Shown: positions 31,141 to 44,457, counted from the stretch's first letter. The stretch: 64,000 bases of DNA from Actinophytocola sp. (GCF_036378875.1 NZ_DASUVO010000140.1:30864-94863), one strand, 5' to 3'. Notes: a model not told the origin generated them from the sequence alone. Numbers and translations: made by a program.

Positions 31141-32919
31141 TCAGCTCAGGGGTCCGGCAGGCGTGGCCATTCCGGCCCCTTCGAGCGCGGTGGCGGCGAC
31201 GGCACGCATGCGGCGAAGCAGCCTGGTCGTCACCGGGCGCACGCGCGGATGCTCGCCACCGTTTGCCGCGGCCTCGTCCTGCCAGCGCTTCTGCCGCGCC
31301 GCGAACGTCGCCGGATCGGCCAGCTCAGCGCAGTCGAGGGTGTCGTGGTCGATGTCCACGGTGATCGTGTCGCCGTCCTCGATCAGGGCGATCGGGCCGC
31401 CCAGTGCCGCCTCCGGCCCGACGTGACCGATGACCAGGCCGACCGAACCACCGGAGAAGCGTGCGTCGGTCATCAGCGCGACGGCGATGCCCTTCTGGCG
31501 GCACAGGGCGGTGATGCGGGAGGTCGGGTCCAGCATCTCGGGCATACCGGGCGCGCCACGCGGGCCCTCGTAGCGGATGACGACCATGTCCTGGTCGGTG
31601 AACACGTCCGGGGTGTCGATGAGCGCCGCCAGCAGGTCCTGCTCGCTGTCGAACACCCGTGCCCGCCCGACGAAGCGGTTGTCCACGAGGCCGGCCTCGA
31701 CACCGGCCAGCTTGATCACCGCGCCACCGTTCGGGGCGATGTTGCCCGCGAGCAGGCGAAGTCCACCCGTCGGTTTGAAGGGGCCCGCCACGCCGAAGAC
31801 GACCTCACCGTCCGGCGCTGGCGGGTCGAGCCGGGCGATCTGCTCGGACAGCGTCTCGCCCGTGCAGGTCAGGGTCGAGCCGTCGAGGACGCCGTGGCCG
31901 AGGAGTTCCTTGACGATCACCGGCAGGCCACCGACCGCGTCGATGTCGACCATGCTGTACTTCCCGAACGGACGGGCGTTGACCAGCACCGGCACGTCCC
32001 GGGAGAGCTTGTTGAACTCCTGCTGGGACATGACCTCGGTCCAGAAGTCGATCCCGGCACCGCGAGCGATCTCCGGTGCGTGCAGGACGACGTTGGTCGA
32101 GCCGCCCATCGCGATGGCCACGATCGTGGCGTTGCGGAACGCGGCCGGGGTGGCCAGGTCACGGGGAGTGATCCCCCGCTGGGTCATGATCTCCAGGCAG
32201 TCCACGAGCTGCTCGGGGAACACCTCGACCCGCCGCGGGTCCTCCGACGCCGGCGACACCATGTGCAGCGGCTCCAGCCCCAGCATCGCGATGAACGACT
32301 GCATGGTGTTGTACGTGAACATGCCCCCGCAGCTGCCGTACCCGGGACAGGCGTTACGCGCCCAGCGCTCACGCTTCTCGGTGTCCGGGTCGCCCGCGAC
32401 CTGGAAGCAGCTGACCAGGTCGATCGTCTCGCCGGTCAGCGGGTCCGTGCCAGGGCGGATGGAGCCGTCGGAGAGCACGACCGCCGGGACGTTGCGCTCC
32501 AGGACCGCCGCGGTGGTGCCGACCGGCGGCTTGTCACACGCCACCACCGCGATCACACCCCGAATGTCGCTGCCCTCGAAGTGCAGCGACAGGCCGTCGT
32601 TGGTGGTCTCCCGGCCGATCAACGAGTAGCGCATCTGCGGCGTGCCGTTGCGCTGGCCGTCGGAGATCCCGCCCGAGTAGTTGGGCGCCAGCAGCCGCAC
32701 CGGCAGGTCACGCTCGGCGATCCGGCGGCCCATGGCCGCCTGGATGGCCTCGACCTTCTCGTTCACGCCGATGTAGCAGACGCTGTCACCCAGCGTCCCG
32801 ACCACACCCCACGGCATCCCGTGGATTTTGTCGACGTCCTGCCCCAACACCCGCGCCGTGGCCACCGCCTGACAGTCCTGACCAGGCCGCCACACCTCCT
32901 GGCCGCTCGACTCGCTCAT
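31141..32919 (-). CDS. IlvD/Edd-family [Fe-S] dehydratase
   Basis: VACDKP, CPGYGSCGGMFTYNTM, AMGGSTNVVLH, GNIAPNGGAVIK, RYEGPRGAPGMPEM and TDARFSGGS...GHVGPEA. The N-terminus is shortened and divergent. Confidence 0.9.
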   Translation of the reverse strand: MSESSGQEVWRPGQDCQAVATARVLGQDVDKIHGMPWGVVGTLGDSVCYIGVNEKVEAIQAAMGRRIAERDLPVRLLAPNYSGGISDGQRNGTPQMRYSLIGRETTNDGLSLHFEGSDIRGVIAVVACDKPPVGTTAAVLERNVPAVVLSDGSIRPGTDPLTGETIDLVSCFQVAGDPDTEKRERWARNACPGYGSCGGMFTYNTMQSFIAMLGLEPLHMVSPASEDPRRVEVFPEQLVDCLEIMTQRGITPRDLATPAAFRNATIVAIAMGGSTNVVLHAPEIARGAGIDFWTEVMSQQEFNKLSRDVPVLVNARPFGKYSMVDIDAVGGLPVIVKELLGHGVLDGSTLTCTGETLSEQIARLDPPAPDGEVVFGVAGPFKPTGGLRLLAGNIAPNGGAVIKLAGVEAGLVDNRFVGRARVFDSEQDLLAALIDTPDVFTDQDMVVIRYEGPRGAPGMPEMLDPTSRITALCRQKGIAVALMTDARFSGGSVGLVIGHVGPEAALGGPIALIEDGDTITVDIDHDTLDCAELADPATFAARQKRWQDEAAANGGEHPRVRPVTTRLLRRMRAVAATALEGAGMATPAGPLS

Positions 32920-33005
32920 CCACCCATCCCCTCGTCCGGTACCGTCGCCAGCCTCCCGATTATCAGGCCGGGCGTCAGTGCGGGCTCGGGCGCACCCACC
33001 TCGTG

Positions 33006-34118
33006 TCACGCCGACCACGTCGGCACGGCGGGTGAGTGGGTGTAGAAGTCGCGGTGAGCGATGGCGGCGCGGCGCCAGGTGTAGGTCGCCGCGAGCAGGC
33101 GGCCCGCGGTCGGCTCGGGTCGACGGGTGAGCATGCGATCCATAGCCGTCGCGATGTCGTGGACATCCGCGGCGAACGCGACGGAACCGCCGGCCCCCGC
33201 GAAGACCTCTCGTAGTACCGGGAGGTCACGTGCGACCACGGGCACTCCGGCGGCCAGTGCCTCCATCGCCGCGAGTCCGAATCCCTCCTTCGTGGACACC
33301 ATCGCCAGCGCGGACGCCTCCGCGACCAGCGCGGGCAGCGCGTCTTCCTCGAGAACGCCGGTGATCACCGGCTCGACTCCCAGCTCGGCCGCACGGGCCT
33401 CGAAAGCCGCGCGGTACTCGCGGTAGTCGAAGAGCGTTTCCCCGCCGCCGATCACCAGTCGCAGGTCGGGGTGGTGGCCCCGCAGGAGGGCGAATGCCTC
33501 CAGCAGGTCGATGGATCCCTTGCGTGGCTCGATTCCGCCCAGCGCGAGGACATAGCGGCCGAGTTCGGCCCGCCACCGTTCTCGGCCGGCGGCGTCGTCG
33601 GCCGCCGCGGCGAAGCGGGCAGCGTCCACGCCGTTGGGGATGACGGTCGGTGTGAGGCCCCAACGCCTGTTGACCTCGTCGGCTACCGACGCCGACACGC
33701 AGATGCGGGCGGTCGGCTCGACGACGGCTCGTTCGTGGCACCTCGCGAGTTCCGGGGTGGTGAAGTCGTCGAGGTGGTGGATGGTCCGCAGGCACGGGAG
33801 CGCGGCGTTGGCGCTGATGCAGTCCTGTGCGTGGACGATGTCGTAGTCCGTCCTCGCCAGCGAGAAGGCTTCACGCAACACCGCTATGGACCGGACGATG
33901 CGTTCGCCGACGGGCTCGTCCTCGGCGGCGTGGAAGGGCACCGTGTGCACCGTGACGGCAGGGTCGACCGGTCGGAAGAAGGTCGTGTCGCCGCCGCGGC
34001 CCAGGGTCCAGACGTGGACGTCCTCGCCGAGTTTCGCGAGTGCCTCGGCCAGCGCGAGGGTGTGCACGACGCCACCGCGTGGGCGGGTGGAATAGGTGAG
34101 GAGAGCGATGCGCGTCAC
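33006..34118 (-). CDS. MSMEG_0565-family glycosyltransferase (GT4)
   Basis: VTRIALLTYSTRPRGGVVHTLALAEAL, HAQDCISANA, GGIEPRKG and EGFGLAAMEALAAG; GTGA overlap with the upstream gene. Confidence 0.9.
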   Translation of the reverse strand: MTRIALLTYSTRPRGGVVHTLALAEALAKLGEDVHVWTLGRGGDTTFFRPVDPAVTVHTVPFHAAEDEPVGERIVRSIAVLREAFSLARTDYDIVHAQDCISANAALPCLRTIHHLDDFTTPELARCHERAVVEPTARICVSASVADEVNRRWGLTPTVIPNGVDAARFAAAADDAAGRERWRAELGRYVLALGGIEPRKGSIDLLEAFALLRGHHPDLRLVIGGGETLFDYREYRAAFEARAAELGVEPVITGVLEEDALPALVAEASALAMVSTKEGFGLAAMEALAAGVPVVARDLPVLREVFAGAGGSVAFAADVHDIATAMDRMLTRRPEPTAGRLLAATYTWRRAAIAHRDFYTHSPAVPTWSA

Positions 34119-34948
34119 GAGGTGCTCCGGTAGGTCTCCGGCTTGAGCTCGGTGAGGTGGTGCAGCACGCGGCGTGCGGTCGCGATCTCGGCGGCGACAT
34201 CCAGTTCCGCCACCGCGATGCCCGCCTTCGACCACGTGCGGGCGAGGATGTCGCCGCCTGGGCCGACGACCTTGGCCTGGCCGAGGAACCGCATCCCGCC
34301 CATCGTGCCGGTCTGGTTCGACGACGCGAGCACCACCTGGTTCTCGGCTGCGCGGGCGCAGTCGTAGAGGTCGAACAACCGCGACTGCCGGTCCTGTGCC
34401 ATGCGGGGCGAACGGTTGGTGATGCTCGTCGGCCAGGCGGACAGGCACGCGATGATGTCCGCACCGTCGACGGCGAGGCTCCGCGCGGACTCCGGGAAGG
34501 TCTTGTCGTAGTCGATGAGCATGCCGATCCGCCCTACCGGGGTGTCGAACGCCGCGAAGGAGTCACCCGGCGCGTAGACCGCGGCCTCGCCCAGCGGTTG
34601 GTGCACCTTGCGGTGCCTGCCCAGCACACCGTCACCGTGTACGCACACCGCCGCGTTGAACCGCTTGTCGCCGTCCAGCTCGCAGTAGCCGACACACACG
34701 ACCATCTCCCCCGCCAGCGCCGCCACCTTCGCGAGCAGCGGGTGGTCACGCTCGAGCGCGGGCGGCAGCGCGTCCGGGTCGGGCTGCCGCAGGTCGGCGA
34801 GGTACCCGCCGAGCGCGGCGTCCGGCAACACCAGCAGCTGTGCGCCGTCCTGACGAGCGTGCTCGATCAACGTGCCGATGCGCTGCAGGTCGAAGTCGAG
34901 GTCACGCCCGAAGTGCGCAGCCACAACCGCGATCCGTGTTGGAGACAT
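34115..34948 (-). CDS. Carbon-nitrogen hydrolase fold protein lacking catalytic Glu and Cys (probable pseudoenzyme)
   Basis: LVLPDAALGGY (E to D), HRKVHQP (K kept) and GMLIDYDKTFPESAR (C to D), read directly from the codons at 34501-34530 and 34801-34840. Confidence 0.88.
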   Translation of the reverse strand: MSPTRIAVVAAHFGRDLDFDLQRIGTLIEHARQDGAQLLVLPDAALGGYLADLRQPDPDALPPALERDHPLLAKVAALAGEMVVCVGYCELDGDKRFNAAVCVHGDGVLGRHRKVHQPLGEAAVYAPGDSFAAFDTPVGRIGMLIDYDKTFPESARSLAVDGADIIACLSAWPTSITNRSPRMAQDRQSRLFDLYDCARAAENQVVLASSNQTGTMGGMRFLGQAKVVGPGGDILARTWSKAGIAVAELDVAAEIATARRVLHHLTELKPETYRSTS

Positions 34949-34955
34949 GGGCGCA

Positions 34956-35789
34956 TCATCCCGTCCAATGTGGTGGGTACGCCTCGGGCCTGCGGTCACG
35001 GAGGTGGCCCATCGACCGCCGTGCGGTCTCCAGTGCCGCCGTGACGTCCAGCTCCGCGATCGCGACGCCTTCTGCCACACCGGTGTCGGCGATGATCTCC
35101 CCGCCCGGCTCGACGATCTTGGCGCTGGCCACGAAGCGTAGGTCGCCGAACGTGCCGGACTGGTTCGCCGACACCCACACCACCTGGTTCTCCAGTGCCC
35201 TTGCCCGGTCGAACAGGTCGAACCGGCGCTTCCAGCGGTCCTCGGCGAGGTCGGCGGCGGCGTTGGTGCGGCTGCCCGGCCACGCGGACACGCAGACGAT
35301 GATCTCCGCGCCGTCCAGCGCGAGTGCCCGCGCGGACTCGGGGAACGCCTTGTCGTAACAGATCATCATGCCGAGCCTGCCGACCGGCGTGTCGAACGCC
35401 GTGAACTCGGCACCCGCGCCGTAGTTCGCGTCCTCCGACAGCGGCTGGTGCACCTTGCGGTGGTTGCCGAGCACACCGTCCCCGGTGACGCAGACCGCGC
35501 TGTTGTAGAGCCGCTCCCCCGCGTCCTCGCAGTAGCCCGCGACCACGACCATGTCACCAGCCAGCGCGGCCACTCGCGCGATCTCCGGGCCGTCCAGGCG
35601 AAGCGGCGGCGGGCCATCGGCGCCACCGTCCAGATTGGCCAGATAGCCGCCGAGTGCCGCCTCGGGTAACGCGAGCAGGCCAACGCCCTCGGCACGTGCC
35701 TGCGCGACCAGCTTCTCGATCCGCGCCAGGTCCGCGTCGAGGTCGCGGTCGAACGGTGCTGCCACCGCGGCCATCCGCACGACGCTCAT
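34956..35789 (-). CDS. Carbon-nitrogen hydrolase (nitrilase/amidase superfamily), intact triad
   Basis: LALPEAALGGY, HRKVHQP and GMMICYDKAFPESAR give the Glu-Lys-Cys triad. Confidence 0.9.
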   Translation of the reverse strand: MSVVRMAAVAAPFDRDLDADLARIEKLVAQARAEGVGLLALPEAALGGYLANLDGGADGPPPLRLDGPEIARVAALAGDMVVVAGYCEDAGERLYNSAVCVTGDGVLGNHRKVHQPLSEDANYGAGAEFTAFDTPVGRLGMMICYDKAFPESARALALDGAEIIVCVSAWPGSRTNAAADLAEDRWKRRFDLFDRARALENQVVWVSANQSGTFGDLRFVASAKIVEPGGEIIADTGVAEGVAIAELDVTAALETARRSMGHLRDRRPEAYPPHWTG

Positions 35790-37180
35790 GCCCGTCCCAA
35801 TCCGGTCACCCCGGCGGGGACGACCTCTGTCAGTGCGCCGTCCGGCCAGCGCAACCACACCCCGCCGCCGGCGACGAGTTCGCCGCAGTCCGCCGTCACC
35901 GCGGGCCCGGCGGGCGGCACCGGCGCTGCCGGCGCGTCCGCCGTGAGCATCGCGAAGCCGGGGAAGCAGGTCAGCCAGTCGCCCACGGTCGCGTGTGCCG
36001 GGCGCGGCACGGCGGCGACGTCGAGGATCGCGCCGCACCCGCTGGCCTCGGCGAGCATGCCGAGCGTGCCCGCGACACCGGCCATCGAGACGTCCTTCGC
36101 GGCGGCGGGCCGCACAGCACCGACCGAGGCCAGCATGGTGCGCAGCTCACCCGGCGTGCGGCTTGTCGTCGAGTCCCACTGGCGGCCCGTGTAACCACGC
36201 CGCCAGCGACCGCCGAGGTCGGCGGTCAACCGTACGGTGTGGCCGGGTCGGCCTCCGCCCCCTGGCACGGGGTGACGGGTACGGCCGAGCGCGGTGACCG
36301 CCAGCGCGGCGGGCACGCCGAGCTGCGTGTGACCGCCCAGCACCGGCACGGCGTAGGCCTCGCTCGCCTTCCGCAGACCGGCGAGCACGCGGCTGGCGAA
36401 GGAGGCGTCGCGGGCACCGAGCGCGTCCAGCAGTCCGACCGGCGTGGCACCCATTGCCGCCAGGTCGTTGACGTTGACCAGTACCGAGCACCAGCCCGCC
36501 CACTCCGGGTCACGCTCCACCATGGACGGCACGATCGCGTCGCAGGCCGCGACCAGATCACTGCCCGGTACGGGAACGCCGTCGTCGCCGACGAACCCCG
36601 GCACGCCGGGGAGCCCGGTGAGCAGCGGGCCGAGCGCGCTCTTCGTGGCGGCCGCCAGCGCCGCGATCCGCCGGATCGGCTTGCGCATGAGGACGTGCGG
36701 CGTGCCCGCGACCGTCACCGGCCCCACGGCTTCCCAGCCCAGGCGCGCGAAGAACCGCTCGTTGCTCGCCTGCACGGTCGCCTCGAACCGGAGCACGCCA
36801 GCGCTTTCCGCGTGCACGCAGGCGGCGTCGACCAGCGCGGAGCCCACGCGGTGCGTCGACCGGTAAGCAGGGTCGACGACCAGCCGCCCACCCTGCCACC
36901 AGCCGAGGTCCACGCCGCCAGTGACCGGGCCGAGCCGGACACCGCCGAGGACCGTGCCACCGGCGTCGCGGGCCACGAGGACGACCGTGCGTGGGTCGTC
37001 GTCTCGCTCGTCGAGGTCGTGGCGCGGGAAGAGCCCTTGCTGCTCGACGAAGACAGCATGGCGGAGCCGGTGGTAGGCGGCGAGCGTCGCCGCGTCCTCG
37101 GCGACCTCGATGGTGAACGCCGGCCCGCGGGCGACACTCGCGGTGTCGCCCAGCAGTACCAGCACGTCGGCCATCGTCAT
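35786..37180 (-). CDS. MSMEG_0567/sll0787-family GNAT + AIR-synthase(PurM)-like fusion (NitE-NitF-like)
   Basis: GNAT part YHRLRHAVFVEQQGLF...WWQGGRLVV...FEATVQ; PurM-like part GDDG, VNVNDLAAMGA, GGHT and KDVSMAG. Confidence 0.9.
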   Translation of the reverse strand: MTMADVLVLLGDTASVARGPAFTIEVAEDAATLAAYHRLRHAVFVEQQGLFPRHDLDERDDDPRTVVLVARDAGGTVLGGVRLGPVTGGVDLGWWQGGRLVVDPAYRSTHRVGSALVDAACVHAESAGVLRFEATVQASNERFFARLGWEAVGPVTVAGTPHVLMRKPIRRIAALAAATKSALGPLLTGLPGVPGFVGDDGVPVPGSDLVAACDAIVPSMVERDPEWAGWCSVLVNVNDLAAMGATPVGLLDALGARDASFASRVLAGLRKASEAYAVPVLGGHTQLGVPAALAVTALGRTRHPVPGGGGRPGHTVRLTADLGGRWRRGYTGRQWDSTTSRTPGELRTMLASVGAVRPAAAKDVSMAGVAGTLGMLAEASGCGAILDVAAVPRPAHATVGDWLTCFPGFAMLTADAPAAPVPPAGPAVTADCGELVAGGGVWLRWPDGALTEVVPAGVTGLGRA

Positions 37181-37181
37181 C

Positions 37182-38237
37182 TCAGCCTCCTGCCGTCGAG
37201 AGCACGCTGCACGCACCGCATGCCGCGCAGCCCGCCTGCTGGTCGGCGCCACGCATGCCCGCCGCGTGCAGCAGTTGACCGACGCGCCGCGTGACGTCCG
37301 CCACGAGCGACGCGGGTGGCGCCACCGCCCCGTCGCGGCGGGCGAGCGTGCCGAGCATCGGGCGCATCGGCACGACGAACGGGTACACGCCCCGCTCGAT
37401 CAGCCGGGCCGCTCCGGCGACGAGGTCGTCGGGATCCTCGCCGAGACCGATGAGCAGGTACGTGGACACCTGGTTCCAGCCGAAGACACGGACCGCCTCG
37501 TCCCACGCGGCCTCGTACTCGGCCAGCGGCACGGTGGACTTGCCGGGCAGCCAGTGCTTTCGCACGTCGTCGTCGAGCGACTCGACGTGAATGCCGATCG
37601 AAGTCGCGCCGGCCTCCTTCAGCTCGGCCAGCACACCCAGGTCACCCGGCGGCTCGATCTGCACCTGGACCGGCAGCCCGGGAACCGCCGCCAGCACGGC
37701 TCGAACGCAGCGCGCCAGGGTTTTCGCGCCACGGTCTGGACCCTTGGTCGTGCCGGTCGTGAGCACCATCTGCCGCACCCCGTCCAGCCGCACCGCGGCC
37801 TCGGCCACCTCGGCGAGTTGGGCCGGGGTCTTCGCGGCGACGGTGGCGCCGGCCCGCAATGACTCCTCGATCGCGCAGAACCGGCACCGCTGGTCCTCGG
37901 CGTAGCGGACACACGTCTGCACCACCGTGGAGGCCAGGACGTCCTTGCCGTGCAGCAGCGCGATCTGCCGATAGGGGATGCCGTCCGCGGTCTCGAGGTC
38001 GTAGAACCGCGGCCGCCGCACCGCTTCCACGGACAGGCCAAGGTCGAGCGTTCCTTTGTGGACACGTCCGTCCCTGACCGTGTACGGGCTCTCGGGGTCG
38101 AGCGGGATCGCCGCGTTGGCGCCGTCCACGACGAGATGCCCGTCGTCGCTCGGGCCGGCACCCTTGTGACGGGTGACCGGCGCGGCCAGGTTGACGCCGC
38201 GCACGGCCAGGTCAGCTCGAATGTCTACTACGGACAT
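37182..38237 (-). CDS. MSMEG_0568-family radical SAM protein (NitD-like)
   Basis: GAGPSDDGH, QTCVRYAEDQRCRFC (Cx8Cx2C), LTTGT, GIHVES and a C-terminal AGCAACGAC. Confidence 0.9.
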   Translation of the reverse strand: MSVVDIRADLAVRGVNLAAPVTRHKGAGPSDDGHLVVDGANAAIPLDPESPYTVRDGRVHKGTLDLGLSVEAVRRPRFYDLETADGIPYRQIALLHGKDVLASTVVQTCVRYAEDQRCRFCAIEESLRAGATVAAKTPAQLAEVAEAAVRLDGVRQMVLTTGTTKGPDRGAKTLARCVRAVLAAVPGLPVQVQIEPPGDLGVLAELKEAGATSIGIHVESLDDDVRKHWLPGKSTVPLAEYEAAWDEAVRVFGWNQVSTYLLIGLGEDPDDLVAGAARLIERGVYPFVVPMRPMLGTLARRDGAVAPPASLVADVTRRVGQLLHAAGMRGADQQAGCAACGACSVLSTAGG

Positions 38238-38241
38238 TCGG

Positions 38242-38754
38242 TCACCACATGTAGGTGGAGTTGATGATCGCGCCCTTGCGGGCGTAGTGAATGAGCGCGT
38301 CCTGGACGTCGAGCGGGTGCGTCGGGATGACACCCTCGATCAGGTCCTCCTCGCGCAGGCCGTGCAACGAGAGCCCGAAGCGGCAGCAGTAGACCTTGCC
38401 ACCTTCCTTGATGAACGTCTTGAGCTGGTCGTTGATGTTGTGCTCGCCGGGGAACGCCGAGTTGCCGGTGGTGGGGAAACCTCGGGTGGCCATGCAGTTC
38501 ATCGCGCCGGGCCCGTAGAAGTAGATCGCGGACTCGAAGCCCTTCCTCAGTGCGCGGGTGGCCTGCAGGATCGCCACGAAGCTCACCGACGACTCGTGGG
38601 CGATGCCGTGGACGAGCGTGAAGTAGGACTGGCCCTCCTCGGCCTGGTAGTCGGGGAAGACCTTGGTGCCGCCGTAGAGGTTCGAGCCCTCGGGCAGCGA
38701 CGGGTGCGGGATCTCGTTCAGGCTCTGTGATTCGAGCTCGGTCAGGTCGGTCAT
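38242..38754 (-). CDS. MSMEG_0572/sll0783-family DsrE-like protein (NitB-like)
   Basis: KVFPDYQAEEG, VHGIAHESSVSFVAILQA, YFYGPG and YCCRFGLSLHGLREEDLIEGV. Confidence 0.9.
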   Translation of the reverse strand: MTDLTELESQSLNEIPHPSLPEGSNLYGGTKVFPDYQAEEGQSYFTLVHGIAHESSVSFVAILQATRALRKGFESAIYFYGPGAMNCMATRGFPTTGNSAFPGEHNINDQLKTFIKEGGKVYCCRFGLSLHGLREEDLIEGVIPTHPLDVQDALIHYARKGAIINSTYMW

Positions 38755-38772
38755 GGTCTGTCTCCTTCGATT

Positions 38773-39600
38773 TCAGTCGTAGAGCTCCGCGAAGGTGTCG
38801 CGGAAGACGAGGTCGGCGAGTTCGCCGTCGCCGGCGACGGCGGCCAGCCGCGCGTACTCGCCGGCGTGGTCGCCCCAGGGTTGGTCGGAGGCGAAGAGGA
38901 TCCGGTCGTGCCCGATGCCGCGGCGCGAGACCTCCTCGGCGAGCCATCGCGGCGTGAACCCGATGGCCCAGGAGAGGTCGGTGTACACGCGTTTGCCCGC
39001 CGCGATCCAGTCGAAGAACCGGCTGCCCGCGAGCTTGATGTGTCCGCTCATGCCGCCGCCGAAGTGCACCAGGTGCACCGCGACGTGGTCGCCGTACCAG
39101 TCGACCAGGTGCCCGACCTCGTCGATGTCCGACGCAGCGCCCGGCGAGGTGTGCACGTGGACGACGAGGTTCCGCTGCCGTGCCACGGCGAAGATCCGGT
39201 CGAGACCGGGACGGCAGTCCTGCTCGGTGGGCCGCCCGCCGAGCAGGAAGCTGAGCTTGAGCGCCCGCACGCCTTCCTCGCCGGCGAGCGTGAGTGCCTT
39301 GTCGGTGCGCTCCCGGTCACGCGGCAGTGGTGACACCCACAGTGCGGCGCGGATCCGGTCGTCGCGCGACGCGGCCTCGACGCAGAGTTCGTTGAACGAG
39401 AACGCGATGTCGGGGTCGGGCACGCCGTAGTTCGGGATCACCAGCGCGCGCTCGGTGCCTTCCGCGTCGAGGTCGGCGATCAGGTCCTCGATCGTGGCGC
39501 GCGCCGTGACATCCGGGCGCACCGGCGGCCCGCCGTAGAAAGGAAACGCGGGCAGTACACCGAGGTGCCGATGCGCGTCGGACAGTCCTTTTCTGGCCAT
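38773..39600 (-). CDS. Amidohydrolase-superfamily metalloenzyme (amidohydro_2-like)
   Basis: DAHRH (HxH), VHVHT, HLVHFGG and FASDQPW metal ligands. Confidence 0.85.
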   Translation of the reverse strand: MARKGLSDAHRHLGVLPAFPFYGGPPVRPDVTARATIEDLIADLDAEGTERALVIPNYGVPDPDIAFSFNELCVEAASRDDRIRAALWVSPLPRDRERTDKALTLAGEEGVRALKLSFLLGGRPTEQDCRPGLDRIFAVARQRNLVVHVHTSPGAASDIDEVGHLVDWYGDHVAVHLVHFGGGMSGHIKLAGSRFFDWIAAGKRVYTDLSWAIGFTPRWLAEEVSRRGIGHDRILFASDQPWGDHAGEYARLAAVAGDGELADLVFRDTFAELYD

Positions 39601-39630
39601 GGGGGAATTCCGTTCTCACGGCAGGAGATG

Positions 39631-40962
39631 TCACGCGACGGTGCGTGGGGCGACCCAGTCGTCGTCGCGGGGGTAGGTCGAGGTCGCCGTGCCGGCGATC
39701 CAGCGCACCTCCGCGCTGGAGGATCGGCGGCCGAACTCGGCGATGCGCGCCGCCAGGTACTGGGCGTCGGCGGCGACACCGCAGAACCGGCCCGAGCCCC
39801 ACGTGTGCTGCCACGGCAGACCGAGGAAGTAGACACCGGGAAAGCTCGTCACGCCGCGATGATGGGTCGGGTAACCGCGACCGTCGAACACCGGGAGGTC
39901 GATCCACCGGTAGTCGGCGCCGAACCCGGTACACCAGACGACCGACCCGATCTCCGCGGCGGCAAGGATCCTCGGCTCGACCTCCGGACGCCACACCGGG
40001 TCATATCGCTTCTCGGCAGGCGCGTCGATGCCCCTGGCGGTCAGACAGGTGTCGATCGAGTCCTTGATGGACTCGGACACGGCGTCCGCCGCGTCGAGGT
40101 TGGCGCGCAGGTCGGCGGCGAAGTACAGCGTGCCGGCGCGGACGTCGACGAGCCTGCCGTAGAGCCGCATGCCGTCGCGGGCGAAGGCACGCAGGTCGAT
40201 GTCCCGGCCCCCGTCGCGGCCGGTGACATAGTGGTTGGCGCGGAACCGCACCGCGTCGACGTCGGCGAACTCGTCGATGCCGCGGCGGTAGTAGCCCATG
40301 TCCTCGAGCCACGCCACCACGTCGCGCCCCCGGTAGCGCCGGGCCACGCGTGGCGCGCTGCCCACCGCGAGGTGCACCCGCCTGCCCGCGAGGTGAAGGT
40401 CCTCCGCGATCTGGCAGCCGGACTGCCCGGTGCCCACGACCAGGATGTCGCCTTCGGGCAGCCGCGCGGGGTTGCGGTAGTCGGCGGAGTGGAGCTGGAC
40501 GATGTCGTCGGGCAGCCGTTCGGCGATACGCGGCACGCGCGGCGTCTGGTACGGGCCCGTTGCCACCACGATCTGGTCCGCCGTCAGCGTGCCCGCCGAG
40601 GTGGTCACCGTGAACCGGCCGTCAGCCTGTTGACGCAACCGGGTCACCGCGACACCTTCGGCAATGGGCACGTCGAAGGACTTCGCGTAGTCCTCGAGGT
40701 AGGCGACGATCTCGTCCCGCGGCATGAACCCGTCAGGATCTCCGCCCGGATAACCGAAACCAGGCAACTGGCACTGCCAGTTCGGCGTGACGAGACAGAA
40801 CGAGTCCCACCGCCGCTCCCGCCACTCGTACCCGACGCGCTCCCGTTCGAACACGACGTGGTCGACACCTGTCCGGGTGAGACAGTGACTCATCGACAGG
40901 CCCGCCTGGCCACCACCCACGACGACCACCGACCGGTGAACGCCCTCCCACTCCCCGGTCAT
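39631..40962 (-). CDS. MSMEG_0569-family flavin-dependent oxidoreductase (NitH-like)
   Basis: [43 protein letters not shown] and WCTGF...[13 protein letters not shown]. Confidence 0.9.
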
Positions 40963-41030
40963 CGCTCGAACCCCGCGACCGGTTGACCGGAACCGCCGGG
41001 CCGGCGTACGAGAAACCGGATTTCGGGCAC
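40959..41030 (-). pseudogene. Collapsed remnant of an MSMEG_0570-family (NitG-like) gene
   Basis: AGGAG RBS + [28 protein letters not shown] (23 aa). It matches the family N-terminus as I recall it (MPExxFxVRWPDG), the CYSPS core is missing, and the ATGA overlap with the next gene is kept. Confidence 0.7.
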
Positions 41031-41116
41031 CGCGTCTCCTCTGTCGGAGTTTCTCGGTGAAGACGGCCGAAGAAACTCCGGCAGCGTTGGCGGACCTGAC
41101 CGCGAAACCCATTCCA

Positions 41117-41141
41117 CAACCGATTCATTGCCAATCGGTTG
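41117..41141. promoter_or_regulatory. Perfect inverted repeat CAACCGATT-N7-AATCGGTTG upstream of the Nit1C-like operon
   Basis: caaccgatt cattgcc aatcggttg, about 90 bp upstream of the first gene in an AT-richer intergenic stretch. Confidence 0.6.
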
Positions 41142-41184
41142 CATCCGAACTACGCAGGTGTTTCCGGTGCCGGGGAATTGTTAC
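41138..41184 (-). promoter_or_regulatory. Degenerate GlnR-box-like pentamers
   Basis: The minus strand reads GTAAC-N15-GAAAC-N6-GTAGT-N6-GCAAC. The 11-bp phasing of the canonical GTNAC-N6-GAAAC box is only partly met. Confidence 0.35.
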
Positions 41185-41238
41185 GTACCCGACCGTTCGT
41201 GCTTAACACAACGGTCCCCACGGGTCGCGAGGGTGTTC

Positions 41239-44200
41239 TCAGTGGGAAAATACTGCGAGGTCGTAGAGGGAATAGCCGTATCCGGTCCCCCGCCGCACGC
41301 CGACCATGCGGACGTAGCGCGCCTCGGTGGCCTGGAACGTGATGTTGTCGATTCCCCCGTTGCCGGTGCTGGTGGTGTGAACCTGTCGCCACGTACTGCC
41401 ATTGGTCGATGTCTCGATCCGATAGGCCGCGCCGAAGGCGGCCTCCCAGTCCAGTCGGACCCGTGCGACCCGTCGTGTGGCGCCGAGGTCGACGGTGATC
41501 GAGTCGTTGTCGCGCCACTCGCTGGCCCACCGGGTCGTCGGGTCGGTATCGACCGCGTGTGCGGCGGGGTGGCCCGACTGTGCGCCGGTCGCGGTGGCCG
41601 TCCTGCCCAGGGCGAGGTTGGTGATGTCGTCGCCGCGGCGTGCGGGGAACTCCACCACCTGCTGGTAGGTCGGACGGTTCTGCCAGGAGATCTTGTCGTG
41701 GCCGATGCCGCCGATCTTCTGCTGCACGATCGAGTCGGCGCACCACTGGTCGCCGGCCTCGCAGTTGCCCTCGTCGCCGGGGTAGGTCACGGTCAGCGGT
41801 TCGGCCGCGGCGCCGAGCAGCGTGTCGGACAGCGCCTTTCGGCACGCGCTCAGGCCGCCACACAGCGGGGTCGTCGTCTTACCGGCCGGGTTCTCGCCGA
41901 GCACCGCGCGGATGTCCTGTGACACCTGGCCGAACCAGCCGTACTGGAACGCCGAGCCGCTGTGCGGGTGGCCGGTGTTCAGCCCGGGTTCGCCCAGCTG
42001 CCAACCGGACGGCGACTCGTTGATCCGCATGACGCCGGTCAGCGCGCGGTACGCGTCGGCGCCGACCTTCGGCTCGTAGATCGCCTTGACCAGTCGTGGC
42101 CACCACGCGTCGAACAGGGCGATCGCGCCGGCGTGCGCATAGGTGTGGCTGCCCAGGCTGGTCTCGGTGCGCTTGCCGCCGGCGGCCAGCCAGGCGCGCA
42201 GTGTCGCCGCCTGCGCGGCGGTGGCGGGGTCGCCGTCCAGCACGCGCAACAGGTTCGGCAGGATGCGCTCGGCACGCATGTCGGTGACCGCGGCGTCGGC
42301 CATGGCCTGGGTCAGGGTGACCCGGTTGACCTTCCCGCCGTTCGCGATCAGGTCGCGCACCCGCCGGTCGAGCACGTCGCCGCGCTGCACCGAGGACTTC
42401 TCCGGGCTGCCGCTCATGCCCGGCGCCTGCTTGTTGTTCCAGCTGATGTAGTAGTCCTGGTTCACCGAGTTCGGATGCTGCGCGAACGGGGTGTAGGTGG
42501 CCGTGTTGCCGTTCGGGTTCCAGTCCTGCCACTCGTTGGCCACGCCGGACCACGCCGGCAGCGCGGGATCCATTGTGGACTTGCGGACCGGGTTGTCACC
42601 GGAGTTGACGTACGCGACGTCCCGCGAGTCGGCGTAGAACCAGTTGAACGTGTAGTTGACGTCCATCGCCGCCTGCTGGAACTCCTGCGCGGAACGGATC
42701 GCGGCCGGGTCGTTGAACTTCTGGAACCCGATGATGGAGTCGGCCTCGTGGAGGAACGTCGATCGCACGGTGGTGTAGGCGACCGGCTTGCCGCCGACCG
42801 TGGCCCGGTGCGTGACCGGTCCGTACCTCGTCCGGTAGGAACGAAGCGTGTAGGAGCCCGCGGCCGTGCCGTCGGCCAGCGTCGGCGTCCAGGCATTCTT
42901 CCGCTCCACCACGTCGAACGGCAGGCACTCACCGCGGAAGCGGTAGTAGCCGGACGCCTTCGTCGGTGTGCCGCCGTTCGGTTCGCACAGCTCGACGGCG
43001 TAGGTGTCGATGATGTCCTGTCCCGCCGTGGTGGCGCTCCACGCGTAGTCCTGACCGCGGCCGAGCAGGGTGTAGAAGCTCAGTCCGGCGAACGACGCGC
43101 CCCTCGACGAGATCCCCGGCCCCTGCAGTTCCTGCAACGTCAGCAGCTGCGGCGCGAAGTACCCGGTCTGCGGGCCGAACACGGCGACCGGGTGGCCGGA
43201 CTCGGTGTGGGCGCCGGAGACCACCAGCGCGTTGGACATCCCCCGCGCCTGGAACATCCCGGCCGCCGCGGCCTGCTGCTGGGTGGAGACCGCTGACCCG
43301 GTCTGGTCGAACACCATCTGCTGCGGGGTCACCGATCCCTTGTCCGGCAGGGCGAGCCCCTGTGGGTTCGCCGGCGACGCGGCATAGGGGAACGACCGTC
43401 CATCGTGGATGGTGCTGATCGCCTCGGGGTCGTTCTGCGACTGGAACTCCTGCCAGCGCCGCTCGCCCTCCGCGAGGCCGTAGCGCTCCTGCAGCGCGAG
43501 CTTCGCGACAGCCTGCTGCACCTCGTTGCCGCCGCCACCGCCGAACTGCGCGCCGACGAGCGACGCCAGCACGACGATGTCGGTCAGCGTGAACGGCTCG
43601 ATGGTGCCGGCGTTGGTGATCGCGTCGATCTTGCCGATGGCCACGTACTCCCCGGGGAAGTACCGGCCGTCCTTGGCCTGCCTCGCGTAGGCGTTGATGC
43701 CATCCACATAGGCCTGTGCGTCGGAGTACGCCAGCTCGCCGGCGGGCCCCTGCCTGCGCACGCTCTCGATCTGCGCGGTCAGTTCCTGCTCCGTGTAGGG
43801 CGACGCGGCGAAGAAGCCCTGTTCCAGCACGCGGTTACCCTCGGCACCTCCGGCGAACGAGGTCACCTGGCCGCGCCCGGCACGCCGCATCACGTCCATG
43901 AGGAACAGCTTGTTCTCCGCCGTGGCGTACCCGGCGCCGAACATGGTGCCCGACCGGGTGGTCCCGTAGATGTGCGGGACGCCGGCCTTCTTGTCGCGCA
44001 CCACGGTGACGTCCGCGCGCGGCTGGTAGCTCCGCTCGATGTCGTCGGCGGCCACGCCGAACGAGTTGTCGTTGAAGAACTGGGTGATCGTGTCCGTGGT
44101 CAGGGTCTGGTACCCGCTGGCCAGGCTCCCGTACATCCCGAGCTGGTCGGCGGAGTGGGCCGGCCTGGCCCCGCTGACGGTGTGCGCCAGGAGCTCGGCG

Positions 44201-44385
44201 AAGGTCGCGTTGCCGTTCTGTCCCGGTGGCAGGATGTCCGCGCACTGCCCGAGGCAGTAGTCCAGCTGGGATGCCGTCCGCACCGTCACCGGTGCCGCCA
44301 TCGCGGGCACCGTGACCACCGCCGCGACCGCCGCGCCCACGGTCAGCACGCCGAAGGCCCTTTTCGTCCACGAACGACCAGACAT
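41239..44385 (-). CDS. Secreted penicillin-acylase-family Ntn hydrolase with a C-terminal F5/8 type C (CBM32/discoidin) domain
   Basis: Signal peptide ...VPAMA; RDKKAGVPHIYG; beta-chain start RGM/SNALVVSG; WNNKQA; C-terminal NLALGRTATAT...TRWASEW...DLGA...VRMVG...YSLYDL. Confidence 0.9.
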   Translation of the reverse strand: MSGRSWTKRAFGVLTVGAAVAAVVTVPAMAAPVTVRTASQLDYCLGQCADILPPGQNGNATFAELLAHTVSGARPAHSADQLGMYGSLASGYQTLTTDTITQFFNDNSFGVAADDIERSYQPRADVTVVRDKKAGVPHIYGTTRSGTMFGAGYATAENKLFLMDVMRRAGRGQVTSFAGGAEGNRVLEQGFFAASPYTEQELTAQIESVRRQGPAGELAYSDAQAYVDGINAYARQAKDGRYFPGEYVAIGKIDAITNAGTIEPFTLTDIVVLASLVGAQFGGGGGNEVQQAVAKLALQERYGLAEGERRWQEFQSQNDPEAISTIHDGRSFPYAASPANPQGLALPDKGSVTPQQMVFDQTGSAVSTQQQAAAAGMFQARGMSNALVVSGAHTESGHPVAVFGPQTGYFAPQLLTLQELQGPGISSRGASFAGLSFYTLLGRGQDYAWSATTAGQDIIDTYAVELCEPNGGTPTKASGYYRFRGECLPFDVVERKNAWTPTLADGTAAGSYTLRSYRTRYGPVTHRATVGGKPVAYTTVRSTFLHEADSIIGFQKFNDPAAIRSAQEFQQAAMDVNYTFNWFYADSRDVAYVNSGDNPVRKSTMDPALPAWSGVANEWQDWNPNGNTATYTPFAQHPNSVNQDYYISWNNKQAPGMSGSPEKSSVQRGDVLDRRVRDLIANGGKVNRVTLTQAMADAAVTDMRAERILPNLLRVLDGDPATAAQAATLRAWLAAGGKRTETSLGSHTYAHAGAIALFDAWWPRLVKAIYEPKVGADAYRALTGVMRINESPSGWQLGEPGLNTGHPHSGSAFQYGWFGQVSQDIRAVLGENPAGKTTTPLCGGLSACRKALSDTLLGAAAEPLTVTYPGDEGNCEAGDQWCADSIVQQKIGGIGHDKISWQNRPTYQQVVEFPARRGDDITNLALGRTATATGAQSGHPAAHAVDTDPTTRWASEWRDNDSITVDLGATRRVARVRLDWEAAFGAAYRIETSTNGSTWRQVHTTSTGNGGIDNITFQATEARYVRMVGVRRGTGYGYSLYDLAVFSH

Positions 44386-44417
44386 CGTTGTCCTCTCGTA
44401 GCACGACGATTGGATCG

Positions 44418-44441
44418 TGACTTGAACACTCGTCCAAGTCA
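44418..44441. promoter_or_regulatory. TetR-type operator, copy 1: TGACTTGAAC-N4-GTCCAAGTCA
   Basis: Near-perfect palindrome in the 72-bp gap between the divergent acylase and TetR starts. Confidence 0.75.
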
Positions 44442-44457
44442 AGGGCAGGATGGCGCA

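What the first reader, a model, noticed from the sequence alone, without database searches (positions are those of the whole stretch)
34115..35789. Tandem nitrilase-fold paralogs of equal length: one active, one with Glu to Asp and Cys to Asp
Seen: both genes are 834 bp and align well. The upstream gene has LPE/RK/ICYD; the downstream gene has LPD/RK/IDYD, intact and coupled to the GT gene. Established: the Cys is the essential nucleophile in this superfamily. Inference: two coordinated changes to Asp in an undecayed ORF suggest selection, either for a non-catalytic partner in a hetero-oligomer or for new Asp-Lys-Asp (possibly metal-dependent) chemistry.
Basis: seen in the sequence. Interest (0 to 1): 0.75.

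Follow-up and report, generated by a model that had tools for sequence, protein, structure and literature searches.

The report
Conserved cysteine-less nitrilase-fold paralog
One of two neighbouring amidase-like genes in a nitrogen-starvation operon of soil actinomycetes has lost the cysteine these enzymes need, yet it is kept almost unchanged in hundreds of species, so databases that call it an amidase are probably wrong about how it works.

Summary
There are two 834-bp minus-strand genes, 60% identical as proteins. The upstream one (CNH-A, 34956-35789) carries Glu43-Lys112-Glu119-Cys144. The downstream one (CNH-B, 34115-34948) carries Asp43-Lys114-Glu121-Asp146 and overlaps the glycosyltransferase start (GTGA).

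It is neither a private mutation nor a recent tandem duplication. Both genes belong to the known but biochemically unsolved MSMEG_0565-0572 'gpr' nitrogen-starvation cluster. By gene order, CNH-B sits at the MSMEG_0566 position and CNH-A at the MSMEG_0571 position.

- All 81 genomic orthologues of CNH-B, and all 329 database homologues checked, have Asp at the Cys site.
- All 79 CNH-A orthologues are Glu-Lys-Glu-Cys.
- dN/dS is about 0.12-0.23 for CNH-B, slightly tighter than for CNH-A.
- The Glu-to-Asp change is not clade-wide. That position is Gly or His in two distant cluster lineages, which weakens the Asp-Lys-Asp triad idea.
- The paralogs are adjacent only in this lineage. CNH-B always directly precedes the glycosyltransferase.
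- Proteobacterial versions of the cluster have one Nit6803 nitrilase and neither paralog.

Best reading (inferred): a thiol-less, selected, non-canonical subunit working with CNH-A. New Asp-based chemistry is not excluded. I rate it a new variant of a known kind, of moderate interest.

The parts
34115..34948 (-). CNH-B (CNH2; sits at the MSMEG_0566 position). A 277-aa nitrilase-superfamily protein with Asp43-Lys114-Glu121-Asp146 and no nucleophilic Cys.
   Evidence: Translation. Pfam CN_hydrolase 119 bits. Alignment to 3IVZ. 81/81 orthologues are D-K-E-D. AF2 model pLDDT 89.5, pTM 0.90.
34511..34513 (-). Codon GAC = Asp146 of CNH-B, at the position of the catalytic Cys.
   Evidence: GAC in 81/81 orthologues.
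34820..34822 (-). Codon GAC = Asp43 of CNH-B, at the position of the general-base Glu. It is Gly or His in distant orthologues.
34956..35789 (-). CNH-A (CNH1; sits at the MSMEG_0571 position). A 277-aa nitrilase-superfamily amidase-like protein with an intact Glu43-Lys112-Glu119-Cys144.
   Evidence: Translation. Pfam 143 bits. 79/79 orthologues are E-K-E-C.
35358..35360 (-). Codon TGT = Cys144 of CNH-A, the nucleophile.
33006..34118 (-). MSMEG_0565-family GT4 glycosyltransferase. Its GTG start overlaps the CNH-B stop (GTGA).
   Evidence: NCBIfam TIGR04047, 451.8 bits against a cutoff of 259.85. Junction. Directly follows CNH2 in all 80 genome loci; estimated spacing is a 4-nt overlap in 60 of them.
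35789..37252 (-). MSMEG_0567/sll0787-family protein (GNAT domain plus AIR-synthase-like domain). Its stop overlaps the CNH-A start (ATGA).
   Evidence: TIGR04050, 483 bits against 312; TIGR04045, 108 bits against 68. Junction.
37185..38333 (-). MSMEG_0568-family radical SAM protein. The coordinates give the longest ORF; the family match starts at residue 41, so the true start may lie downstream.
   Evidence: TIGR04043, 500.6 bits against 303.7.
38245..38754 (-). MSMEG_0572/Sll0783-family nitrogen-starvation response protein (DsrE-like).
   Evidence: TIGR04044, 259 bits against 109.85. Weak Pfam DsrE match.
38776..39600 (-). Amidohydro_2-family protein, 275 aa. An extra gene found in this arrangement of the cluster.
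   Evidence: Pfam PF04909, 53 bits. No NCBIfam match. Present in most of the 80 related loci. Absent from the Rhodococcus and Mycolicibacterium versions.
39634..41112 (-). MSMEG_0569-family flavin-dependent oxidoreductase. The coordinates give the longest ORF; the family match starts at residue 61.
   Evidence: TIGR04046, 649.6 bits against 498.35.

Best explanation
SHOWN.
- CNH-B is this genome's copy of an old, strongly constrained nitrilase-superfamily paralog. It belongs to the actinobacterial MSMEG_0565-0572 ('gpr') nitrogen-starvation operon and, by gene order, sits at the MSMEG_0566 position.
- In every member seen, the nucleophilic Cys is Asp. Lys, the second Glu and the fold are kept. 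The first Glu is not conserved across the clade (Asp, Gly or His).
- It always co-occurs with an intact Glu-Lys-Glu-Cys sister paralog (CNH-A, at the MSMEG_0571 position).
- It always lies directly upstream of the MSMEG_0565 glycosyltransferase, usually with overlapping stop and start codons.

INFERRED from the established mechanism of the superfamily, in which Cys forms the covalent thioimidate or thioester and the first Glu activates it. CNH-B cannot carry out the canonical amidase or nitrilase reaction. Labels such as 'aliphatic amidase' or 'nitrilase' therefore mis-state its mechanism.

INFERRED, most likely mechanism.
- Nitrilase-fold proteins work as two-fold dimers or larger oligomers.
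- CNH-B would be the non-hydrolytic partner of CNH-A in a mixed oligomer. Its preserved, more acidic pocket (Lys-Glu-Asp plus the paralog-specific Thr150) would bind rather than cleave a pathway intermediate, or shape or regulate the active subunit.
- The CNH-A/CNH-B pair would fill the slot that a single homo-oligomeric Nit6803 nitrilase fills in the proteobacterial version of the cluster.
- The amide-cleavage product or bound intermediate would then be passed to the co-translated glycosyltransferase.
For: Conservation.
- 81/81 genomic orthologues are D-K-E-D and 79/79 sisters are E-K-E-C.
- 120, 120 and 89 database homologues from Pseudonocardiales, Streptomycetales, Streptosporangiales and Mycobacteriales all have Asp at the Cys site.

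Selection.
- dN/dS is 0.12-0.23 for CNH-B and 0.15-0.25 for CNH-A.
- 143 of 273 columns are at least 97% conserved in CNH-B, against 119 in CNH-A.
- CNH-B is the second most conserved protein of the operon.

Loss of the canonical site rather than a designed triad.
- The Glu1 position is Asp, Gly or His in cluster-borne orthologues.
- CNH2-like orphans outside the cluster also lose Lys (AQHD, AQDD, ARRG).

Fold. The AF2 model has pLDDT 89.5 and pTM 0.90. The best PDB neighbours are the Pyrococcus amidases 6YPA, 1J31 and 3IVZ.

Co-occurrence and replacement.
- Both paralogs are present in all 80 genome loci and in L081, L083, L088 and L091, across three gene orders.
- Burkholderia and Paraburkholderia clusters have one Nit6803 nitrilase, the glycosyltransferase, and neither paralog.

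Coupling. The junctions are ATGA, 7 nt and GTGA in the window. The median is a 4-nt overlap at both junctions in 80 loci.

Where the paralogs differ. Only 10 positions are fixed differently between them. Three lie in the catalytic elbow (43, 146, 150). Six lie in or next to the family-specific insertion, the helix after it and the C-terminal helix (188, 191, 195, 201, 262, 267), and one is at 222. Of these regions, the insertion (171-190) and the tail (261-277) are the only low-confidence parts of the monomer model. From general knowledge of the fold, not tested here, these regions form subunit contacts.

Precedents.
- Heteromeric NIT4A/NIT4B2 nitrilase complexes in sorghum (Jenrich et al. 2007, as cited in PMC5154151).
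- Many two-domain CN_hydrolase proteins pair a Cys domain with a Cys-to-Gly domain.
Against: - No physical evidence for a CNH-A/CNH-B complex exists.
- A mirror-tree test that controls for the other operon genes gave no specific co-evolution of CNH-B with CNH-A (partial r = 0.05) or with the glycosyltransferase (0.15).
- Within-genome A-B identity is no higher than cross-genome identity, 58.3% against 57.9%.
- The two paralogs are adjacent in only one of three gene orders. The conserved neighbour of CNH-B is the glycosyltransferase, not CNH-A.
- Asp, Lys, the second Glu and Thr150 are strictly invariant over hundreds of sequences. That is more than a purely structural partner would be expected to need, and it fits a working site.
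- Apparent natural fusions (P0132, P0133) that would have supported physical interaction turned out to be frameshifted metagenome contigs.
Confidence: 0.45

Rival explanations
1. CNH-B is a stand-alone enzyme with non-thiol chemistry in the nitrilase fold. Asp146 would act as a carboxylate nucleophile, as a general base for water, or as a metal ligand together with Glu121 and Asp43, with Lys114 stabilising the oxyanion. It would catalyse a second, different C-N or ester/glycoside-related step of the pathway just before or after the glycosyltransferase.
For: - Asp146, Lys114, Glu121 and Thr150 are invariant in more than 400 sequences, and Asp43 is invariant throughout the actinomycete orders sampled.
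- The site is more conserved than a scaffold needs, and overall constraint exceeds that on the active sister.
- The pocket-forming motifs DK-x-FPE, AWP and ENQ are retained.
- There is no co-evolution signal with CNH-A.
- Conserved translational coupling to the glycosyltransferase suggests a step of its own in the pathway.
Against: - The general-base position is Gly or His in other cluster-borne orthologues, so no fixed triad exists across the clade.
- I know of no nitrilase-superfamily member with a carboxylate nucleophile, and full-text searches found none.
- In the solved relatives, replacing the nucleophile (Cys to Ala or Ser) is the standard way to trap substrate. Examples are 6YPA C146A, 5H8K C158S and 1UF4 C171A.
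- The glycosyltransferase works without any CNH2 in Burkholderia-type clusters.
Confidence: 0.25
2. CNH-B is a non-catalytic ligand-binding or adaptor protein that works with the MSMEG_0565 glycosyltransferase rather than with CNH-A. For example, it could present the acceptor or hold the product.
For: - CNH2-glycosyltransferase is the adjacency kept in all three gene orders seen. The estimated spacing is a 4-nt overlap in 60 of 80 loci.
- CNH-B is adjacent to CNH-A only in the window's lineage.
- The loss of the canonical site applies as in the main explanation.
Against: - MSMEG_0565-family glycosyltransferases occur without any CNH2 in Burkholderia and Paraburkholderia clusters.
- CNH2 occurs exactly where CNH1 occurs.
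- The partial co-evolution signal with the glycosyltransferase is weak, r = 0.15.
- The one apparent CNH2-glycosyltransferase fusion (P0133) is a frameshift artefact.
Confidence: 0.2
3. The Cys-to-Asp change is a private mutation, a sequencing error, or the first step of pseudogene decay.
For: None found. The only exception is a 165-aa truncated metagenome fragment (P0135, on a 668-nt scaffold). It is CNH2-like but has Cys.
Against: - The same Asp is present in every orthologue examined.
- The codons differ at all three bases, TGT against GAC.
- The ORF is intact, GC3 is 0.91 and dN/dS is about 0.12-0.23.
Confidence: 0.01

Closest known systems
Mycobacterium smegmatis gpr cluster MSMEG_0565-0572, specifically MSMEG_0566 ('aliphatic amidase') and MSMEG_0571 ('hydrolase, carbon-nitrogen family')
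   Same: - The protein families match: NCBIfam models 0565, 0567, 0568, 0569 and 0572 all score above their cutoffs.
- The Mycolicibacterium litorale locus, in the MSMEG_0572-to-0565 gene order, has an E-K-E-C hydrolase next to the 0572-family gene and a D-K-E-D hydrolase next to the glycosyltransferase.
- The M. smegmatis cluster is GlnR-induced under nitrogen starvation, and deleting the operon causes peroxide sensitivity (PMC6039565, PMC4222082).
   Different: - The gene order differs. In the window's lineage the two hydrolases are adjacent, an Amidohydro_2 gene is added, and this particular window lacks the MSMEG_0570 gene.
- The M. smegmatis sequences themselves were not available here. 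The assignment of MSMEG_0566 to the Cys-to-Asp type rests on synteny with M. litorale.
- The papers treat MSMEG_0566 as a putative amidase and do not mention the missing Cys.
Nit1C / sll0783-0787 cluster with its Nit6803-family nitrilase (NitC of cyanide-assimilating Pseudomonas)
   Same: It shares the core of 0572-like protein, radical SAM, GNAT, AIR-synthase-like protein, 0570 and 0569. Burkholderia versions also carry the MSMEG_0565 glycosyltransferase (PMC7815647 and PMC1199592, listed).
   Different: - That version has one true branch-1 nitrilase and no second hydrolase.
- CNH-A and CNH-B score only 43.5 and 30.5 bits against TIGR04048 (cutoff 502.6), so they are not members of that family.
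- The pair looks like a non-orthologous replacement of the nitrilase.
Pyrococcus amidases/'nitrilases' PH0642 (1J31, 6YPA) and PaNit (3IVZ); N-carbamoylputrescine amidase; Nit2 omega-amidase
   Same: These are the closest solved sequences and folds. phmmer gives E = 1e-24 to 1e-25. Foldseek gives E about 1e-22 with TM-scores of 0.75-0.83. All share the alpha-beta-beta-alpha CN_hydrolase fold and the Lys and second Glu.
   Different: - All of them have the Glu-Lys-Cys triad, whereas CNH-B has Asp at the Cys site.
- Sequence identity is 22-29%.
- CNH-A and CNH-B share an insertion of about 14 residues (CNH-B 174-190) that is absent from the Pyrococcus proteins.
Heteromeric NIT4A/NIT4B nitrilase complexes of Poaceae (Jenrich et al. 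2007)
   Same: Paralogous nitrilase-superfamily subunits act together as a mixed oligomer, as cited in PMC5154151.
   Different: Those are plant branch-1 nitrilases and, as far as I recall, both isoforms keep the catalytic Cys. Here one partner has lost it, and no complex has been shown.
Dead-paralog activators ('prozymes'), e.g. trypanosome AdoMetDC prozyme
   Same: The concept is the same: a catalytically dead paralog, kept under selection, heterodimerises with the active enzyme (PMC6221367, abstract listed).
   Different: The fold and organisms are unrelated. This is an analogy only.

Membership tests
Nitrilase superfamily (Pfam CN_hydrolase, PF00795) | Sequence match to the family profile above the gathering score. 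| tested here: met
   CNH-B scores 118.9 bits and CNH-A 143.1 bits against a cutoff of 23.2.
Nitrilase superfamily (Pfam CN_hydrolase, PF00795) | Alpha-beta-beta-alpha sandwich fold. | tested here: met
   The AF2 model of CNH-B has pLDDT 89.5 and pTM 0.90. Top Foldseek hits are all nitrilase-superfamily structures with probability 1.00 and TM-scores of 0.75-0.83. This is a prediction, not a solved structure.
Nitrilase superfamily (Pfam CN_hydrolase, PF00795) | Catalytic Glu-Lys-Cys triad, plus the second Glu. | tested here: not met
   CNH-B has Asp43, Lys114, Glu121 and Asp146. The Cys and the first Glu are replaced. CNH-A meets the feature with Glu43, Lys112, Glu119 and Cys144.
Nit6803-family nitrilase (NCBIfam TIGR04048, the Nit1C nitrilase) | Score above the curated cutoff of 502.6 bits. 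| tested here: not met
   CNH-B scores 30.5 bits and CNH-A 43.5 bits.
MSMEG_0565-0572 / gpr nitrogen-starvation gene cluster | Presence of the signature families 0565, 0567, 0568, 0569 and 0572 in one operon. | tested here: met
   TIGR04047, TIGR04050 and TIGR04045, TIGR04043, TIGR04046 and TIGR04044 all score above their cutoffs. The genes are contiguous on the minus strand from 33006 to 41112.
MSMEG_0565-0572 / gpr nitrogen-starvation gene cluster | Presence of the MSMEG_0570-family small protein. | tested here: not met
   tblastn of three 0570 proteins against the whole window found nothing better than E = 0.67. At least 36 of the 80 related loci have the gene just upstream of 0569.
MSMEG_0565-0572 / gpr nitrogen-starvation gene cluster | Induction by nitrogen starvation through GlnR. 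| not testable with these tools
   No RNA data exist for this organism. Only soil metagenome DNA runs share up to 20% of the sampled words. Induction is known for M. smegmatis (PMC4222082, PMC6039565).
Pseudoenzyme (dead paralog retained as partner) | Loss of a residue essential for the family's chemistry. | tested here: met
   Cys to Asp in all orthologues. The first Glu is variable.
Pseudoenzyme (dead paralog retained as partner) | Retention under purifying selection. | tested here: met
   dN/dS is 0.12-0.23. 52% of columns are at least 97% conserved.
Pseudoenzyme (dead paralog retained as partner) | Actual lack of catalytic activity, and physical association with the active paralog. | not testable with these tools
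   This needs enzyme assays and co-purification. The sequence-based co-evolution proxy was uninformative, with partial r = 0.05.

The most novel reading that the evidence does not exclude
The MSMEG_0566-type proteins are working enzymes that use a carboxylate (Asp146, with Lys114 and Glu121, possibly plus a metal) in place of the thiol of the nitrilase fold. This would be the first non-cysteine catalytic mechanism in the superfamily. It would carry out a dedicated step in making the unknown glycosylated product of the nitrogen-starvation (gpr) cluster.
Probability: 0.22. Interest if true: 0.8.

Novelty: new variant of a known kind. Interest (0 to 1): 0.55.

Why it matters
The MSMEG_0565-0572 / Nit1C-type clusters are widespread. 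They occur in soil actinomycetes, mycobacteria, cyanobacteria, Burkholderia and on Klebsiella plasmids. Published work links them to nitrogen starvation, peroxide resistance, PHB accumulation and cyanide assimilation. In the literature I could search, none of the enzyme steps apart from the Nit6803-family nitrilase has been characterised, and the product is unknown.

One of the two 'amidases' of the actinobacterial version universally lacks the nucleophile. This has three consequences:
- It corrects the annotation. Public records call these proteins nitrilase, aliphatic amidase or (R)-stereoselective amidase.
- It changes pathway reconstructions. MSMEG_0566 was proposed to release ammonia directly.
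- It gives a sharp experiment in M. smegmatis, where published operon-deletion and complementation strains show genetics is workable: a dead partner or a new carboxylate chemistry in the nitrilase fold.

Either outcome would be new for this superfamily.

Tried and rejected
1. Natural fusion proteins as evidence of interaction. P0132 looked like a CNH1-CNH2 fusion and P0133 like a CNH2-glycosyltransferase fusion. P0124, P0137 and P0157 were also odd. All contain Arg/Pro-rich out-of-frame stretches typical of frameshifted high-GC metagenome contigs, so I rejected them.

2. Mirror-tree partial correlations among the eight operon proteins in 68 genomes. There was no specific CNH-A/CNH-B signal (0.05) or CNH-B/glycosyltransferase signal (0.15). 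The highest values for CNH-B were with the 0572 and radical SAM proteins (0.33 each). The test is weak and I treat it as uninformative.

3. Gene conversion or concerted evolution between the tandem copies. None was found: 68% DNA identity, a longest identical run of 17 nt, and within-genome identity equal to cross-genome identity.

4. Synonymous variation at the Asp codons as a sign of long-term maintenance. This was uninformative. All 81 are GAC, as expected with GC3 near 0.9.

5. CNH2-like proteins that also lack Lys (P0126, P0127, P0144). P0126 and P0127 lie outside the cluster context. P0144 follows a diverged radical SAM gene, with no glycosyltransferase after it. They show further decay of the site, but they are not orthologues in function.

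6. Expression data for this organism. No matching RNA or isolate runs exist.

7. Literature. I searched for a nitrilase-superfamily pseudoenzyme, for a Cys-less member, and for biochemistry of the cluster. Nothing relevant turned up.

8. Heterodimer structure prediction. I did not attempt it.


Full report
OBSERVATION

The window is about 70% G+C. The stretch 33006-41112 is one minus-strand operon. The two genes of the finding are exactly as described.
- CNH-A runs 34956-35789 and CNH-B 34115-34948. Each is 834 bp with its stop and encodes 277 aa.
- The proteins are 60% identical (E = 2e-112). Both are clear Pfam CN_hydrolase members.
- CNH-A has Glu43, Lys112, Glu119 and Cys144. CNH-B has Asp43, Lys114, Glu121 and Asp146.
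- In the HMMER alignment to the Pyrococcus abyssi nitrilase 3IVZ, the two Asp residues fall on the LPE Glu and on the Cys of 'vmicfd'.
- The Cys codon is TGT and the Asp codon GAC, a difference at all three bases.
- The genes are tightly packed. There is an ATGA overlap with the upstream gene, 7 nt between the two hydrolases, and a GTGA overlap between CNH-B and the glycosyltransferase.

WHAT THE LOCUS IS

NCBIfam places the neighbours, all above curated cutoffs, in five families: MSMEG_0565 (glycosyltransferase), MSMEG_0567/sll0787 (GNAT plus AIR-synthase-like), MSMEG_0568 (radical SAM), MSMEG_0569 (flavin oxidoreductase) and MSMEG_0572/Sll0783.

This is the actinobacterial form of the conserved nitrogen-starvation cluster.
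- In M. smegmatis it is called gpr. It is GlnR-induced, and deleting the operon causes peroxide sensitivity (PMC6039565; PMC4222082).
- It is related to the Nit1C / sll0783-0787 cluster of cyanobacteria and proteobacteria.
- The M. smegmatis cluster is reported to hold two carbon-nitrogen hydrolases, MSMEG_0566 ('aliphatic amidase') and MSMEG_0571.
- Neither hydrolase of the window belongs to the Nit6803 nitrilase family: 30.5 and 43.5 bits against a cutoff of 502.6.
- Their nearest solved relatives are the Pyrococcus amidases PH0642 and PaNit, N-carbamoylputrescine amidase and Nit2. So the pair is amidase-like rather than nitrilase-like.

IS THE Cys-TO-Asp CHANGE PRIVATE?

No.
- A genome scan returned 80 loci from Amycolatopsis, Lentzea, Saccharothrix, Actinokineospora, Saccharopolyspora, Streptomyces, Catenulispora, Microbispora, Sphaerisporangium, Actinoplanes relatives and others.
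- Wherever the contig reaches far enough, each locus shows the same gene order as the window: 0569, Amidohydro_2, 0572, 0568, 0567, CNH1, CNH2, glycosyltransferase (one locus, L072, has no Amidohydro_2 match).
- All 81 CNH2 sequences are D-K-E-D, and all 79 recoverable CNH1 sequences are E-K-E-C.
- The best 120 database homologues of CNH-B have LPD and (I/V)DYD.
- So do 120 homologues of the Rhodococcus orthologue. These come from Rhodococcus, Williamsia, Nocardia, Gordonia, Nakamurella and Mycobacterium. The motif search missed the first position in one (a 237-aa sequence) and the Lys in another, but both show the Asp.
- So do 89 further homologues of a Mycobacterium orthologue.

SELECTION

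- Nei-Gojobori dN/dS over genome pairs is 0.12 for closely related pairs and 0.18-0.23 for more distant ones. For CNH-A the values are 0.15 and 0.19-0.25.
- CNH-B has 143 of 273 columns at least 97% conserved, against 119 for CNH-A.
- It is the second most conserved protein of the operon. Its mean Kimura distance is 0.189, against 0.231 for CNH-A and 0.102 for the 0572 protein.
- GC3 is 0.91.
- An AlphaFold2 model is confident: pLDDT 89.5 and pTM 0.90. Only the family-specific insertion (about 171-190) and the C-terminal tail (261-277) are weak.
- The gene is therefore intact, folded and constrained.

AGE AND ARRANGEMENT OF THE PAIR

The pair is old, not a fresh tandem duplicate.
- DNA identity is 68% and the longest identical run is 17 nt.
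- Within-genome paralog identity (58.3%) equals cross-genome identity (57.9%), so there is no concerted evolution.

More distant versions of the cluster show other gene orders.
- A Rhodococcus qingshengii plasmid (L088) and two metagenome contigs (L081, L083): 0572, 0568, 0567, CNH1, 0570, 0569, CNH2, glycosyltransferase. The 0570 gene was not called separately in L083.
- Mycolicibacterium litorale (L091): 0572, CNH1, 0570, 0569, 0568, 0567, CNH2, glycosyltransferase. This is the MSMEG_0572-to-0565 order.

By synteny, the Cys-less protein therefore sits at the MSMEG_0566 position and the intact one at the MSMEG_0571 position. The M. smegmatis sequences themselves were not in reach.

Across the three orders, the blocks CNH1-0570-0569 (in two of them), 0568-0567 and CNH2-glycosyltransferase persist. 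CNH1 and CNH2 are adjacent only in the window's lineage.

WHAT IS CONSTANT IN THE ALTERED SITE

- In cluster-borne orthologues the Cys position is always Asp, and Lys and the second Glu are kept.
- The first Glu position is Asp in the actinomycete orders sampled, Gly in L081 and its relatives, and His in L083 and its relatives.
- CNH2-like proteins outside the cluster context have also lost Lys. P0126 (AQHD) and P0127 (AQDD) keep the Asp, while P0144 (ARRG) has Gly at the Cys position.
- The 'coordinated' Asp-Lys-Asp pattern is therefore lineage-specific. The general picture is loss of the canonical thiol mechanism with retention of a Lys-Glu-Asp pocket.
- Only ten positions are fixed differently in the two paralogs:
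  - the two catalytic ones;
  - Ala148/Thr150, four residues after the nucleophile;
  - W186/Q188, R189/L191, F193/Y195 and L199/A201, in the insertion and the following helix;
  - V220/L222;
  - M260/L262 and D265/E267, in the C-terminal helix.

CONTEXT THAT BEARS ON FUNCTION

- Burkholderia anthina and Paraburkholderia plasmids carry the cluster with an MSMEG_0565-family glycosyltransferase. They have a single Nit6803 nitrilase and neither CNH1 nor CNH2.
- So the glycosyltransferase does not need CNH2 in general. CNH1 and CNH2 appear and disappear together, and together they occupy the slot of the homo-oligomeric nitrilase.
- Both the CNH1-CNH2 and the CNH2-glycosyltransferase junctions have a median 4-nt overlap in the 80 loci.

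MECHANISM

Established knowledge of the superfamily is that Cys attacks the substrate to form a covalent thioimidate or thioester, that the first Glu activates it, and that the fold works as a two-fold dimer or larger oligomer. From this I infer three things.
- CNH-B cannot perform the canonical reaction.
- Its most likely role is as the non-hydrolytic partner of CNH-A in a mixed oligomer. Its preserved acidic pocket would bind an intermediate or tune the active subunit, and the product would be handed to the co-translated glycosyltransferase.
- Precedents exist: heteromeric NIT4A/NIT4B2 complexes in sorghum (cited in PMC5154151), and many two-domain CN_hydrolase proteins that pair a Cys domain with a Cys-to-Gly domain.

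I put this at about 0.45. What counts against it:
- no physical data exist;
- a crude mirror-tree test found no specific co-evolution;
- the strict invariance of Asp, Lys, Glu and Thr150 looks like a working site.

The rivals are a stand-alone enzyme with carboxylate or metal chemistry (about 0.25), a binding or adaptor protein for the glycosyltransferase (about 0.2), and error or decay (about 0.01, refuted).

NOVELTY

The cluster and its two hydrolase genes are known and annotated. I found no report that one of them universally lacks the nucleophile. NCBI has no specific family model for either hydrolase. Public names include nitrilase, acyltransferase and (R)-stereoselective amidase. The finding is a new variant of a known kind: a conserved thiol-less nitrilase-fold paralog. 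It is testable in M. smegmatis, where published operon-deletion and complementation strains show that genetics is workable.

Noticed in passing
window 41113-41241 and the whole window: This copy of the cluster lacks the MSMEG_0570-family small gene. In at least 36 of the 80 related loci that gene sits directly upstream of the 0569 oxidoreductase. Here, a penicillin-amidase/F5-8-type-C gene (41242-44595, minus strand) abuts the 0569 ORF instead.
   Followed up: partly
window 31144-33018 (-): A divergent IlvD/Edd-family dehydratase lies directly downstream of the glycosyltransferase; its longest ORF overlaps the glycosyltransferase stop. It scores 431 bits against NCBIfam dihydroxy-acid dehydratase (cutoff 644), so it falls below the cutoffs. 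It was not detected next to the cluster in any of the 80 related loci.
   Followed up: partly
window 38776-39600 (-): An Amidohydro_2 (PF04909) gene is inserted between the 0569 and 0572 genes in this lineage's version of the cluster. It is absent from the Rhodococcus, Mycolicibacterium and Burkholderia versions, and no NCBIfam model matches it.
   Followed up: partly
representative proteins P0151, P0153, P0154, P0160, P0213 and about 40 others: A large set of 530-650-aa proteins consists of two CN_hydrolase domains. One has Glu-Lys-(Glu/Asp)-Cys. In the other the Cys is Gly or another non-Cys residue in nearly all. This looks like an independent, fused active-plus-dead pair in the same superfamily. 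No NCBIfam model names them.
   Followed up: partly
L085 (P0127), L086 (P0126), L087 (P0144): CNH2-like proteins that have also lost the catalytic Lys (AQDD, AQHD, ARRG). L085 and L086 lie outside the cluster. L085 is next to a type II dehydroquinase and a ferritin-like gene, and L086 is near a beta-lactamase-family gene. L087 follows a diverged radical SAM gene and is next to a CobN-like gene. Their role is unknown.
   Followed up: partly
L092 (P0135, 668-nt metagenome scaffold): A 165-aa truncated CNH2-like fragment (66% identical to CNH-B, with LPD) still has Cys in ICYDKTFPE. It may be an intermediate form, or it may be an assembly artefact. The scaffold is too short to tell.
   Followed up: partly
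plasmid collection: MSMEG_0572/Sll0783-family genes occur on 514 plasmid records. 372 of them are Klebsiella and 30 Escherichia. This suggests that a cluster of the Nit1C kind is common on enterobacterial plasmids; I did not look at the neighbouring genes.
   Followed up: no
L088 (Rhodococcus qingshengii N9T-4 plasmid pN9T4-1, 244524-252010 in the record): The full cluster, flanked by IS256 transposases, sits on the linear plasmid of a published 'super-oligotroph' that grows without added carbon or nitrogen sources. Carbonactinospora thermoautotrophica also carries a CNH2 orthologue (P0083).
   Followed up: no
window 34949-34958; L081 7503-10004: PMC6039565 proposes that the UGA stop of MSMEG_0571 is read as selenocysteine to fuse it with MSMEG_0570 and MSMEG_0569. 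In the window's lineage the orthologous gene (CNH-A) is followed instead by CNH-B in another reading frame. Such a fusion therefore cannot be a general feature of the cluster.
   Followed up: no
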